Below are positions 11,127 to 13,765 of a DNA stretch of 64,000 nucleotides, piece after piece; position 1 is the first letter of the stretch, and the number at the start of each line of letters is the position of its first letter. The notes below the pieces were generated by a model. That model was not told where the DNA came from and searched no databases. It saw only the letters and a program-made list of their open reading frames with translations. This DNA comes from the human T2T-CHM13v2.0 reference genome, Homo sapiens. The DNA lies in NCBI RefSeq assembly GCF_009914755.1, contig NC_060941.1; one strand, 5' to 3'. The position numbers and the translations under genes were made by a program.

Positions 11127-12190
11127 CTGTTTTAGAATAAAAAGTGGAAATTAGATTTTGGATTATATGCAGATGGAATGGACCTTAAAATTGGAAAAGT
11201 AAAATATATCTCAGCATTTCATTTCATTGGTATTTTAATACATCCCCTATAAAATTATACATTTAATTGTATAAGTTATGTATTCCTGAAGACAAAGCTT
11301 CAATTTGGAGAAATTGGATCAAGACTGGGAATATAAATTTCTACCCTCTTGCTTCCTTCAAATCCTTTGAATGTCAAAGAATCTATACACTTAATATTAA
11401 ATAATAAAACAAAGACTACTAGAAATAAAAACAAAACGTAGTTTATTTGCTTCCTAGGCAAAGGAAAGAAGTGTGGCTTAAGAAATTGTCTCCCTGAGGC
11501 TTGCAGAGCTGGAAACAGAAGGGCTGGGTATAGAGAAAAGGGGAAGAGTTTATTTCATATTCGGAGGGAGGTAGAACTGATAAAGAAAACATTGGTAAAG
11601 TATCTCCTGGTACTGGTCATCATTTTGCTTTATATCACAAAAGTGTGGGCATGATATTTAGAAATATCTGCTGGGATCTAAGACATGTCACAGGCATTTT
11701 CACATATATGTGCCTAAGGCTTGACAACTTTTTCTTTAATGTTTGAAAACTTAACTCCACCGGAAAATAAGAATTCAGTTAGCATGCTGGAAATTTTAAA
11801 AGATTCTCTGAAGACAGAAAACAGAGGGAATTAGATTGTCAGAGCGTCAAAAATCAGGCAAACCACAGGCCAAAATAGACGATGAAGAGTTCTATGAAAG
11901 TAAAACCAGTTTCACTAATACTTCGAGCTTAGTTTGAGAAAGTCAGGTCAAAGATTATAAACCGGTATAAACAGTGTATTCCTATTGTTGAAAAAATATT
12001 TTATATATAAATGTATATATACAAAAAAGATAATATATTATTGGTAATTATCCCTCATGGCAGAAACATATTTTAATTTTTTTGTTTTCTCTTTATTCTC
12101 TAATTTTCCACAATAATGATATTTTCACATCACAGAAATGTTTTTGTGTTTTAATTTGAAGCATTATCAAACAATGAAGTTTTTCTTTTT

Positions 12191-13691
12191 TTTTTTTTTT
12201 TTTTTTTTTAGTATTTATTGATCATTCTTGGGTGTTTCTCAGAGAGGGGGATTTGGCAGGGTCATAGGACAATAGTGGAGGGAAGGTCAGCAGATAAACA
12301 TGTGAACAAGGGTCTCCGGCTTTCCTAGGCAGAGGACCCTGCGGTCTTCCGCAGTGTTTGTGTCCCTGGGTACTTGAGATTAGGGAGTGGTGATGACTCT
12401 TAAGGAGCATGCTGCCTTCAAGCATCTGTTTAACAAAGCACATCTTGCACCGCCCTTAATCCATTTAACCCTGAGTGGACACAGCACATGTTTCAGAGAG
12501 CAAGGGGTTGGGGGTAAGGCCATAGATTAACCGCATCCCAAGGCAGAAGAATTTTTCTTAGTACAGAACAAAATGGAGTCTCCCATGTCTACTTCTTTCT
12601 ACACAGACACAGCAACAATCTGATTTCTCTTTCCTTTCCCCACACTTCCCCCTCTTCCACTGGACAAAACCGCCATCATCATCATGGCCCGTTCTCAATG
12701 AGCTGCTGGGTACACCTCCCAGAGCGGGTGGCGGCTGGGCAGAGGGGCCCCCCACCTCCCAGACGGGGCGGCTGCCGGGCGGGGGCTGCCCCCCACCTCC
12801 CTCCCGGACTGGGCGGCTGGCCGGGCAGGGGCTGCCCCCCACCTCCTGGAGGGGGCGGCTGCCGGGCGGAGATGCTCCTCACTTCCCAGACGGGGTGGCT
12901 GCCGGGCAGAGGGGCTCCTCACTTCTCAGACGGGGCGGCCGGGCAGAGACGCTCCTCATCTCCCAGACAGGGTGGCGGTCGGGCAGAGACACTCCTCAGT
13001 TCCCAGACGGGGTCGCGGCCGGGCAGGGGCGCTCCTCACATCCCAGATGATGGGCGGCGGGGCAGAGGCGCTCCCCACATCTCAGACGATGGGCGGCGGG
13101 GCAGAGACGCTCCTCACTTCCTAGACGGGATGGTAGCCGGGAAGAGGCGCTCCTCACTTCCCAGACTGGGAGGCCGGGCAGAGGGGCTCCTCACATCCCA
13201 GACGATGGGCAGCCAGGCAGAGACGCTCCTCGCTTCCCAGATGGGGTGGCAGCCGGGCAGAGGCTGCAATCTCGGCACTTTGGGAGGCCAAGGCAGGCGG
13301 CTGGGAGGTGGAGGTTGTAGCGAGCCAAGATCACGCCACTGCACTCCAGCCTGGGCAACACTGAGCACTGAGTGAGCGAGACTCCGTCTGCAATCCCAGC
13401 ACCTCGCGAGGCTGAGGCTAGCAGATCACTCGCGGTTAGGAGCTGGAGACCAGCCCGGCCAACACGGCAAAACCCCGTCTCCACCAAAAAAATACGAAAA
13501 CCAGTCAGGCGTGGCAGCACGCGCCTGCAATCCCAGGCACTCGGCAGGCACTCGGCAGGAGAATCAGGCAGGGAGGTTGCAGTGAGCCGAGATGGCGGCA
13601 CTACAGTCCAGCCTCCGCTTGGCATCAGAGGGAGACCGTGGACAGAGGGAGGGGGAGGGGGAGGGGGAGAGGGAGAGGGAGAGGGAGAGGG
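12191..13691 (-). mobile_element. Full-structure SVA retrotransposon (probably older A-C group), same orientation as ABCA10
   Basis: CCCTCT hexamers (13650-13691), antisense Alu-like domain, GC-rich VNTR, SINE-R, AATAAA (12219-12214), poly(A); TSD agtttttcttttt 12178-12190 / 13692-13704. Confidence 0.96.
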
Positions 13692-13706
13692 AGTTTTTCT
13701 TTTTAC

Positions 13707-13765
13707 CTTGCAATGCTTCTACTTTTCCAGTCTTTCCATTATATTCTTTTATAACATTTCTGATT
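13707..13765 (-). CDS. ABCA10: ABCA10 exon (IRNVIKEYNGKTGKVEALQ), start of NBD1, 59 nt
   Basis: TTCAG|AA acceptor, AAG|GTAAAA donor; phase 2-1. Confidence 0.94.

What the first reader, a model, noticed from the sequence alone, without database searches (positions are those of the whole stretch)
12178..13707. SVA inserted using the splice donor as its target, sense to ABCA10
Seen: donor CAAG|GTAAAAAGAAAAACT. The 13-bp TSD covers intron positions +3 to +15, so the L1-endonuclease-type nick (TTTT/A) fell next to the GT. The SVA hexamer starts 15 nt into the intron, and its AATAAA-poly(A) is sense to the gene. The donor (GTAAAA) is weak. Read-through gives ...EALQGKKKNSLSLSL...CNLPA* (ORF 13564..13791). 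Known: sense SVAs can exonise, supply splice sites and cause premature polyadenylation. Inference: a TMD1-only transcript ending just before Walker A is possible, or the 59-nt exon is skipped (frameshift).
Basis: partly seen in the sequence, partly recalled or inferred. Interest (0 to 1): 0.7.

Follow-up and report, generated by a model that had tools for sequence, protein, structure and literature searches.

The report
SVA retrotransposon beside an ABCA10 splice donor
A full-length SVA retrotransposon sits, in the gene's own orientation, 15 bases after a coding exon of human ABCA10; the element and its occasional inclusion in the mRNA are already in print, and it may bear on why this gene is decaying in humans.

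Summary
On the minus strand the 59-nt ABCA10 exon ends CAAG|GTAAAAAGAAAAACT. A complete SVA follows from intron position +16: CCCTCT hexamers, Alu-like part, 40-bp VNTR, SINE-R, AATAAA, poly(A). The same 13-mer closes it. That 13-mer occurs only at these two places in the window, against 0.04 expected.

The donor from -3 to +15 is unchanged by the insertion. Its A-rich flank is ancestral, because two paralogous exons carry it too. The donor is mid-to-low strength for this gene, not exceptional.

This is the only SVA in ABCA10. It is therefore the "SVA-F" that Kwon et al. 2013 reported as a VNTR cassette exon in cDNA AL832004.

Both RefSeq transcripts use the normal junction.

Breuss et al. 2020 report relaxed selection on ABCA10 in the human lineage and mostly truncated transcripts, without mentioning the SVA. 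A causal link between the two is an open, testable idea.

Verdict: a real, already described element, with a notable position and modest novelty.

The parts
13707..13765 (-). 59-nt coding exon of ABCA10. It is the 11th of the 39 exons of NM_001377321.1, counted from the hub list. It encodes IRNVIKEYNGKTGKVEALQ plus the first base of a Gly codon.
   Evidence: Hub annotation. Translation. The joined CDS is open, with 1234 nt up to the donor. Paralogous exons are 87-88% identical.
13705..13706 (-). GT of the splice donor. Context AAG|GTAAAAAG.
   Evidence: It matches 7 of 9 positions of the recalled consensus. The same GTAAA start is present in two paralogues.
13692..13704 (-). Upstream copy of the target-site duplication, AAAAAGAAAAACT, at intron +3..+15. 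The inferred L1 endonuclease nick is on the plus strand between 13704 and 13705.
13642..13691 (-). SVA 5' (CCCTCT)n hexamer region, about 50 nt. The inner edge is approximate.
   Evidence: period 6, 8.3 copies, 95% matches, 13644-13693. GC 0.72.
13263..13641 (-). SVA Alu-like region. It contains a private 11-bp tandem duplication at 13534-13559. Edges are approximate.
   Evidence: Only this part of the element matches the Alus of the window and of the rest of the gene. It is 91-94% identical to the same part of 19 other SVA loci.
12713..13262 (-). SVA VNTR: about 14 GC-rich units of about 40 bp. It holds 2 of the element's 3 acceptor-like sites (first exon bases 13165 and 13120; the third, 13300, lies at the end of the Alu-like part). 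It also holds 6 GTGAGG donor-like sites.
   Evidence: period 40, 13.8 copies.. Kwon 2013 places the AL832004 cassette exon in the VNTR.
12211..12712 (-). SVA SINE-R region, ending with AATAAA at 12219-12214. The upper edge is approximate.
   Evidence: Positions 12210-12700 match 39 other scored genomic copies at 95-98% identity over at least 489 of 491 nt, out of 2099 first-look candidates. AATAAA found.
12191..12210 (-). Poly(A) tail of the SVA. The A-run spans 12209-12186; its last five A's may belong to the TSD.
12178..12190 (-). Downstream copy of the target-site duplication, AAAAAGAAAAACT.
11016..11126 (-). Next ABCA10 exon, encoding the Walker A motif GHNGAGKST of the first nucleotide-binding domain. 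It is the normal splice partner of the donor at 13706.
   Evidence: Hub annotation..

Best explanation
This is an L1-mediated (target-primed reverse transcription) insertion of a full-length SVA into the A-rich tract that follows the donor of ABCA10 exon 11.

How it got there. The L1 endonuclease cut the antisense strand at TTTTT/AC, directly beside the GT. The T-run primed on the SVA poly(A). A second cut 13 nt away produced the TSD. Because the TSD repeats intron +3..+15, the donor is unchanged from -3 to +15. What changed lies from +16 onward:
- a U-rich native flank was replaced by (CCCUCU)n;
- the intron grew from 1066 to 2580 nt;
- it gained 3 acceptor-like sites, 6 GTGAGG donor-like sites and one AATAAA.

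Likely consequence (inferred). The canonical junction 13707->11126 still works. A fraction of transcripts is mis-processed; the one documented form is a VNTR cassette exon. The insertion is tolerated because human ABCA10 is under relaxed constraint.

Shown versus inferred. Shown: the anatomy, the TSD, the endonuclease site, the ancestral donor flank, and that this is the only SVA in the gene. From print: the SVA-F label, the cassette exon, and the relaxed selection. Inferred: the size of the effect and the reason the insertion is tolerated.
For: Anatomy and insertion:
- Element anatomy and orientation.
- The 13-mer TSD is found only at the two element ends; expected 0.04.
- Plus strand reads CTTTTT/AC.
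- SINE-R is 95-98% identical to 39 other scored copies.
- Hancks & Kazazian 2016 (passages) name TSD, L1 EN site and poly(A) tail as the hallmarks, and say most SVAs are full length.

Ancestral donor:
- Paralogous exons read AAAG|GTAAAGAAAAAC (in ABCA6) and AAAG|GTA(18)....

Single SVA in the gene:
- Every hit to the window or to C17:70024001-70060000 outside the element lies in the Alu-like part or the A-run. That is 31 of 31 HSPs and 11 of 11.

Transcripts:
- Kwon 2013 (whole text) reports ABCA10 (SVA-F, AL832004) with a cassette exon, both sites in the VNTR.
- This copy's VNTR does carry acceptor-like and GTGAGG donor-like sites.
- Both RefSeq transcripts in the hub table use the normal junction.

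Tolerance:
- Breuss 2020 (abstract and passages) reports dN/dS 0.58 on the human ABCA10 branch against 0.28-0.30 for the paralogues, pNull 0.99, and many homozygous loss-of-function carriers.
Against: - No RNA data were available here, so 'mostly normal splicing' rests on RefSeq curation only.
[quoted passage not shown] That leaves room for a much larger effect of the SVA than I assume.
- The SVA-F label, and so the human-specific age, was not verified. Divergence of the SINE-R is compatible with insertion either side of the human-chimpanzee split: 7 non-shared differences in 491 nt, 2 of them CpG transitions.
- One cDNA is thin evidence for exonisation.
Confidence: 0.7

Rival explanations
1. 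The SVA is a major lesion. It makes most human ABCA10 pre-mRNA non-productive, through premature cleavage at its AATAAA, skipping of the 59-nt exon, or VNTR exons carrying stops. It started or accelerated the human-lineage pseudogenisation of ABCA10.
For: - Position: a full-length, sense element 15 nt from a donor. Zhang 2011 (passages) found only 30 of 54,136 full-length intronic AluY and 7 of 10,134 full-length L1 within 20 bp of an exon, and attributes the depletion to purifying selection.
- Every modelled aberrant outcome truncates before Walker A at residue 427: read-through gives 458 aa, skipping gives a stop after 395 aa, and 8 of 11 heuristic cassette exons bring a stop.
- Breuss 2020 reports human-only relaxation and GTEx signal from truncated or PTC transcripts.
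- Kwon 2013 labels the element SVA-F and, citing Wang 2005, calls SVA-E and SVA-F human-restricted.
Against: - The donor core is unchanged.
- RefSeq keeps the normal junction in both transcripts.
- The native intron already holds 8 other AATAAA/ATTAAA hexamers.
- Gorilla ABCA10 is a pseudogene, and several mammals lost the gene without this SVA (Breuss 2020). The gene is therefore loss-prone on its own.
- No transcript evidence ties the truncated isoforms to this intron. The Breuss supplement that is held has 0 hits for ENST, isoform, truncated and intron.
Confidence: 0.2
2. The SVA is a neutral passenger with no measurable effect on ABCA10 RNA processing. The single chimeric cDNA is splicing noise.
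For: - The donor from -3 to +15 is untouched.
- RefSeq models are normal.
- Zhang 2011 notes that the few TEs within 20 bp of exons lie mostly at donors: 27 of 30 AluY and 5 of 7 L1. This implies the donor side is the more tolerant one.
- Only one cDNA is reported (AL832004 occurs in 1 paper).
Against: - The sequence from +16 on changed completely, from 31% GC to 72% GC.
- The intron more than doubled in length.
- A spliced cDNA using two SVA sites exists (Kwon 2013).
Confidence: 0.09
3. The flanking 13-mers are a chance match, or the exon and donor arose from the SVA rather than pre-dating it.
For: None found. The 5' A's of the TSD are ambiguous with the poly(A) tail.
Against: - The 13-mer has 2 matches where 0.04 are expected, and 0 of 100 shuffles reach 2.
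- The exon with its GTAAA donor and A-rich flank is present at two paralogous loci that have no SVA.
Confidence: 0.01

Closest known systems
ABCA10 SVA-F exonisation (cDNA AL832004), Kwon et al. 2013, Genomics Inform 11:142 (PMC3794087)
   Same: It is the same element. ABCA10 holds only one SVA. The paper reports a cassette exon with donor and acceptor in the SVA VNTR, and this copy's VNTR has such sites.
   Different: The paper's text gives no coordinates and does not remark on the TSD, the L1 EN site or the distance to the exon (whole text read; figures not held). It offers no link to ABCA10 pseudogenisation.
Disease-causing sense SVA exonisation or exon trapping: FKTN 3'UTR (SVA-E) and PMS2 intron 7 (SVA-F, 71-bp exon), as summarised in Kwon 2013 and Hancks & Kazazian 2016
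   Same: A sense-oriented SVA in a transcribed gene supplies cryptic splice sites and yields aberrant mRNA.
   Different: Those are rare pathogenic alleles in constrained genes. This copy is in the reference assemblies (T2T here; the UCSC human assembly in Kwon 2013), in a gene reported as tolerant of loss, and much closer to an exon. The size of its effect is unknown.
Transposable elements inside the 'hazardous zone' near exons, Zhang, Romanish & Mager 2011 (PMC3088655)
   Same: It is a full-length element within 20 bp of an exon, on the donor side. That is the side where the rare survivors lie: 27 of 30 AluY and 5 of 7 L1.
   Different: SVA was not analysed in that paper (0 occurrences). This element is sense-oriented and 1.5 kb long, a class expected to be more disruptive than Alu.
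Human-lineage pseudogenisation of ABCA10, Breuss et al. 2020 (PMC7674697)
   Same: Same gene. The paper reports truncated or PTC transcripts and relaxed constraint specific to humans, matching the age claimed for SVA-F.
   Different: The paper has 0 occurrences of 'splice' and 'transposable'. It attributes decay to coding loss-of-function variants and drift, not to this insertion.

Membership tests
SVA (SINE-VNTR-Alu) composite retrotransposon | 5' (CCCTCT)n hexamer repeat | tested here: met
   13644-13693, period 6, 8.3 copies, 95% matches.
SVA (SINE-VNTR-Alu) composite retrotransposon | Alu-like region | tested here: met
   Element positions 1087-1460 (plus-strand numbering) are the only part that matches Alu copies in the window and the rest of the gene. 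It is 91-94% identical to the same part of 19 other SVA loci. The antisense orientation of the Alu pieces was not checked.
SVA (SINE-VNTR-Alu) composite retrotransposon | GC-rich VNTR of roughly 35-50-bp units | tested here: met
   12713-13262, period 40, 13.8 copies. GC 0.73.
SVA (SINE-VNTR-Alu) composite retrotransposon | SINE-R module shared with other SVA copies; derivation from HERV-K | tested here: inconclusive
   Sharing is met: 39 other scored copies at 95-98% identity over at least 489 of 491 nt, from 2099 candidates. No HERV-K reference was compared, so the derivation is taken from Kwon 2013.
SVA (SINE-VNTR-Alu) composite retrotransposon | Terminal AATAAA and poly(A) tail | tested here: met
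   AATAAA at 12219-12214. A-run 12209-12186.
L1-mediated (TPRT) insertion | Target-site duplication flanking the element | tested here: met
   13-mer at 13704-13692 and 12190-12178, unique to these two sites. 8 bp are unambiguous.
L1-mediated (TPRT) insertion | Insertion at an L1 endonuclease site (TTTT/A type) on the strand opposite the element | tested here: met
   Plus strand reads CTTTTT/AC at the TSD edge. The consensus is recalled and is also named as a hallmark.
SVA_F subfamily (human-specific) | Subfamily-diagnostic substitutions and indels in SINE-R; absence from the orthologous ape site | not testable with these tools
   No labelled subfamily references and no ape genomes are held. 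The label comes from Kwon 2013 (RepeatMasker/Repbase). Divergence from the commonest state of 29 similar copies is 10 columns of 491; 3 of these are shared with 12-14 copies, and 4 are unique. That is compatible with a young element but not decisive.
Exonised or exon-trapping SVA | Spliced transcripts that join host exons to SVA sequence | not testable with these tools
   No RNA data here. Kwon 2013 reports cDNA AL832004. Here only splice-site-like motifs were found: 3 acceptor-like and 6 GTGAGG sites.
SVA-driven premature polyadenylation | Host transcripts with 3' ends at the SVA poly(A) site | not testable with these tools
   AATAAA is present and sense, but it is 1 of 9 such hexamers in the intron. 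No 3'-end data, and no paper found.

The most novel reading that the evidence does not exclude
The human-restricted SVA-F, 15 nt from the donor of the exon that precedes Walker A, is the first lesion of human ABCA10. By diverting a large share of pre-mRNA into truncated or PTC isoforms, possibly in a VNTR-length-dependent way, it lowered functional output. That relaxed selection on the human branch and let the many coding loss-of-function alleles accumulate. This would explain why relaxation is seen in humans but not in chimpanzee or bonobo.
Probability: 0.2. Interest if true: 0.55.

Novelty: already known. Interest (0 to 1): 0.33.

Why it matters
As an object it is ordinary: a reference SVA that repeat annotation already masks and whose exonisation was published in 2013.

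Two points add value.

First, its position is extreme. It is a full-length sense element whose TSD begins at intron +3. This shows that an A-rich donor flank can itself be an L1 endonuclease target, and that a donor can survive such a hit because the TSD restores +3..+15.

Second, two separate papers had not been connected in the papers I could search. One reports this SVA as exonised in ABCA10. The other reports human-only relaxed selection on ABCA10, with mostly truncated transcripts. If the SVA accounts for those transcripts, ABCA10 would be a clear case of a lineage-specific retrotransposon starting the death of a gene. Public RNA data could settle this quickly.

Tried and rejected
- The repeat finder on the minus strand was not accepted. 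I used the DNA search for the TSD instead.
- Offspring of this copy: the 188-nt 3' flank is unique in the genome. The exon with its flanks occurs only here and at two paralogues. There is therefore no sign of 3' transduction, of exon-trapped 5' transduction, or of this exon in the processed pseudogene ABCA10P named by Piehler 2008. The search skips common words and scores only the best candidates, so absence is weak evidence.
- Dating and subfamily by divergence gave too few events to place the insertion before or after the human-chimpanzee split. No labelled SVA_A-F references or ape genomes were available.
- The Breuss 2020 supplement was searched for isoform identities: 0 hits for ENST, isoform, truncated and intron. 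Figures and PDFs were not visible.
- Hancks 2009 (exon trapping by SVA) is not held, so its tables could not be checked for ABCA10.
- The eLife 2024 hit for ABCA10+SVA was irrelevant. The other hits were judged unrelated from their titles and abstract starts only.
- Donor strength was scored only by matches to a recalled consensus. No MaxEnt-type model was available.
- The cassette-exon candidates come from my own heuristic site lists, not from the cDNA.
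Full report
**What is in the sequence**

Read on the minus strand, the 59-nt ABCA10 exon (13765-13707) ends ...GCATTGCAAG. The intron opens GTAAAAAGAAAAACT. From 13691, which is intron position +16, a complete SVA follows:
- CCCTCT hexamers: TRF array 13644-13693, period 6, 8.3 copies.
- An Alu-like stretch.
- A GC-rich VNTR: 12713-13262, period 40, 13.8 copies; GC 0.73.
- A SINE-R part.
- AATAAA at 12219-12214.
- An A-run, 12209-12186.

Then comes GAAAAACT and unique intron sequence. 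The 13-mer AAAAAGAAAAACT lies at 13704-13692 and 12190-12178 and nowhere else in the 64-kb window. Expected 0.04; 0 of 100 shuffles reached two. Thirteen bp is the maximum TSD. The leading A's of the second copy merge with the poly(A) tail, so 8 bp are unambiguous.

On the plus strand the site reads AGTTTTTCTTTTT/ACCTTG. A nick at the TSD edge is TTTTT/AC, an L1-endonuclease-type site immediately beside the GT. The element is sense to ABCA10.

The SINE-R part (12210-12700) matches 39 other scored places in the same genome at 95-98% identity over at least 489 of 491 nt, out of 2099 first-look candidates. It is therefore a member of a large, young repeat family. TSD, endonuclease site and poly(A) tail are the hallmarks of L1-mediated insertion, and most SVAs are full length (Hancks & Kazazian 2016, passages).

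- The read-through frame gives ...KVEALQGKKKNSLSLSLSLSPSPSPSLCPRSPSDAKRRLDCSAAISAHCNLPA*, with the stop at 13566-13564. The other two frames are closed earlier.
- Joining the annotated coding exons by coordinates gives an open frame of 832 residues within the window. There are 1234 nt up to the donor, and Walker A (GHNGAGKST) starts at residue 427, in the next exon.
- Read-through would give 458 residues, 411 native plus 47 new.
- Skipping the 59-nt exon shifts the frame, with a stop after residue 395.

**What the insertion did and did not change**

The TSD duplicates intron +3..+15, so the donor is identical to the pre-insertion state from -3 to +15.

The donor flank is ancestral. A DNA search of the genome with the exon and its flanks found two paralogous exons on the same chromosome, at 88% and 87% identity.
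- The one inside the span the hub gives for ABCA6 reads AAAG|GTAAAGAAAAACATTG.
- The other, 274 kb away, reads AAAG|GT followed by 18 A's and a GA repeat. It is probably ABCA8, from recalled gene order.

The A-rich tract that makes this donor look weak is thus a family trait. It is also what offers an L1 endonuclease site on the opposite strand.

Against the recalled consensus MAG|GTRAGT, the donor matches 7 of 9 positions. Of the 20 ABCA10 donors in the window, 4 match fewer, 4 others match the same number and 11 match more. 'Weak' is fair for +5 and +6, but the donor is not an outlier in this gene.

What did change:
- From +16 on, a U-rich native flank (native part of the intron, GC 0.31) became CCCUCU repeats (GC 0.72).
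- The intron grew by 1514 nt, from 1066 to 2580 nt.
- The intron gained 3 of its 9 acceptor-like sites (first exon bases 13300, 13165, 13120) and six GTGAGG donor-like sites in the VNTR.
- It gained one AATAAA. That AATAAA is only 1 of 9 AATAAA/ATTAAA hexamers in the intron; the other 8 are native.
- No donor-like site in the intron reaches 8 of 9.

**Is it already known?**

A BLAST of the element against the window gave 31 HSPs outside the element itself. Against the remaining 36 kb of ABCA10 (C17:70024001-70060000) it gave 11 HSPs. All of them lie in the Alu-like part or the A-run. No SINE-R or VNTR sequence occurs elsewhere, so ABCA10 contains a single SVA.

Kwon et al. 2013 (PMC3794087; whole text read; figures not held) list 'ABCA10 (SVA-F, AL832004)' among four genes with SVA exonisation. 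They state that the SVA supplied both donor and acceptor of a cassette exon, in the VNTR. That must be this element.
- It is the only paper with both 'ABCA10' and 'SVA' meaning the retrotransposon. Of the 9 hits, I read Kwon 2013 in full and one other (irrelevant). The remaining seven were judged from their listings only.
- It is the only paper naming AL832004.
- It is the only paper with ABCA10 plus 'exonization'.
- Its text says nothing about the TSD, the endonuclease site or the 15-nt distance to the exon.

The SVA-F label comes from their RepeatMasker/Repbase analysis. Citing Wang 2005, they describe SVA-E and SVA-F as human-restricted.

I could not verify subfamily or age. Against 29 similar SINE-R copies:
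- This copy differs from the commonest state at 10 of 491 aligned positions.
- Three of those states are shared with 12-14 copies, which looks like a subgroup marker.
- Two are CpG transitions.
- Four states are unique to this copy.

This is too few events to place the insertion before or after the human-chimpanzee split.

The element is present in T2T-CHM13 (this window) and in the UCSC assembly used by Kwon 2013. It was also transcribed in the cDNA donor. It is therefore common or fixed (inference).

**Context that raises the stakes**

Zhang, Romanish & Mager 2011 (PMC3088655; passages) found full-length TEs strongly depleted near exons and attribute this to purifying selection.
- Only 30 of 54,136 full-length intronic AluY lie within 20 bp of an exon, and only 7 of 10,134 full-length L1.
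- The survivors sit mostly on the donor side: 27 of 30 and 5 of 7.
- TEs inside the depleted zones are several-fold more often part of chimeric ESTs.
- SVA was not analysed (0 occurrences).

A 1.5-kb sense SVA at +16 is therefore at the far end of what is tolerated.

Breuss et al. 2020 (PMC7674697; abstract and passages) report the following.
- ABCA10 shows relaxed selection on the human branch: dN/dS 0.58, against 0.28-0.30 for ABCA6, ABCA8 and ABCA9.
- ExAC pNull is 0.99, with ten loss-of-function variants and many homozygotes.
- They conclude that ABCA10 is undergoing pseudogenisation in humans.
- Chimpanzee and bonobo have intact genes, while gorilla has a pseudogene.

Their text has 0 occurrences of 'splice' and 'transposable'. 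The held supplement has 0 hits for ENST, isoform, truncated and intron. The SVA is not considered, and I could not learn which truncated isoforms dominate.

**Most likely mechanism**

Shown: a classical TPRT insertion of a full-length SVA into the ancestral A-tract of the donor flank, with the donor core preserved by the TSD.

From print: at least one spliced cDNA uses two VNTR sites, and the gene is under relaxed constraint in humans.

Inferred: canonical splicing persists, since both RefSeq transcripts in the hub table use 13707->11126. A fraction of transcripts is diverted. The cost is tolerated because the gene is dispensable.

A plausible brake on the SVA poly(A) site is U1 binding at the true donor and at the six GTGAGG motifs upstream of it. 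That is the recalled principle of U1 suppression of intronic polyadenylation, and it was not tested here.

I put 0.7 on this reading. I put 0.2 on the stronger reading that the SVA is a main source of the non-productive transcripts and helped start the human-specific decay. I put about 0.09 on no effect at all, and about 0.01 on a chance TSD or an SVA-derived exon, which refute.

**Against my reading**

- No RNA evidence was available.
- RefSeq curation says what can be spliced, not how often.
- Breuss's GTEx remark leaves ample room for a large effect.
- Against the strong reading: the gene is lost or disabled in several mammals without this SVA, the donor is unchanged, and nothing yet ties the truncated isoforms to this intron.

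**Other checks**

The 188-nt 3' flank of the SVA is unique in the genome. The exon occurs only here and at the two paralogues. There is thus no sign that this copy spawned offspring with 3' transduction or trapped exons. This is weak negative evidence, because the search scores only the best candidates.

**Verdict**

The element is already known. The position beside the GT and the possible tie to ABCA10 pseudogenisation are the parts worth a quick look in public RNA and pangenome data.

Noticed in passing
window 13534-13559 (minus strand), inside the SVA Alu-like region: An 11-bp unit is tandemly duplicated (TRF: 2.4 copies, 100% matches). The tandem form is absent from all 29 other SVA loci fetched; 20 of those include an Alu-like match in the fetched span. 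It is a private change of this copy or of its source lineage. It accounts for part of the lower identity of the Alu-like region (91-94%) compared with SINE-R (95-98%).
   Followed up: partly
L036 (G000:C17:69797621-69800701, reverse strand), paralogous exon at C17:69799121-69799201: The paralogous exon (probably ABCA8, from recalled gene order) has its donor GT followed by 18 A's and then a GA repeat. This is an even more extreme A-tract next to a splice donor, and another potential L1 endonuclease target.
   Followed up: no
L001-L030, SINE-R alignment columns 190, 191, 208: The 30 most similar SINE-R copies split almost evenly at three columns (15:14, 16:13, 16:12). The ABCA10 copy is in the slightly smaller group. 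This looks like a subgroup marker, but I could not tie it to a named subfamily.
   Followed up: no
window 11127-12177 (minus strand), native part of the intron: Eight AATAAA/ATTAAA hexamers and six acceptor-like sites lie in the AT-rich native part of the same intron. Cryptic signals were therefore plentiful before the SVA arrived.
   Followed up: no
window 12521-12666: NCBI's repeat mask, as listed by the hub, leaves this stretch unmasked. It lies inside the SINE-R module, which matches other SVA copies end to end. The mask under-reports the element.
   Followed up: partly
Outside the window: 4p16.3 (ABCA10P/ABCA11P, named in Piehler 2008): ABCA10 has a transcribed processed pseudogene. The genome search with the 59-nt exon and its flanks found no copy on another chromosome. 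The pseudogene therefore seems not to include this exon and cannot report on its past splicing.
   Followed up: partly
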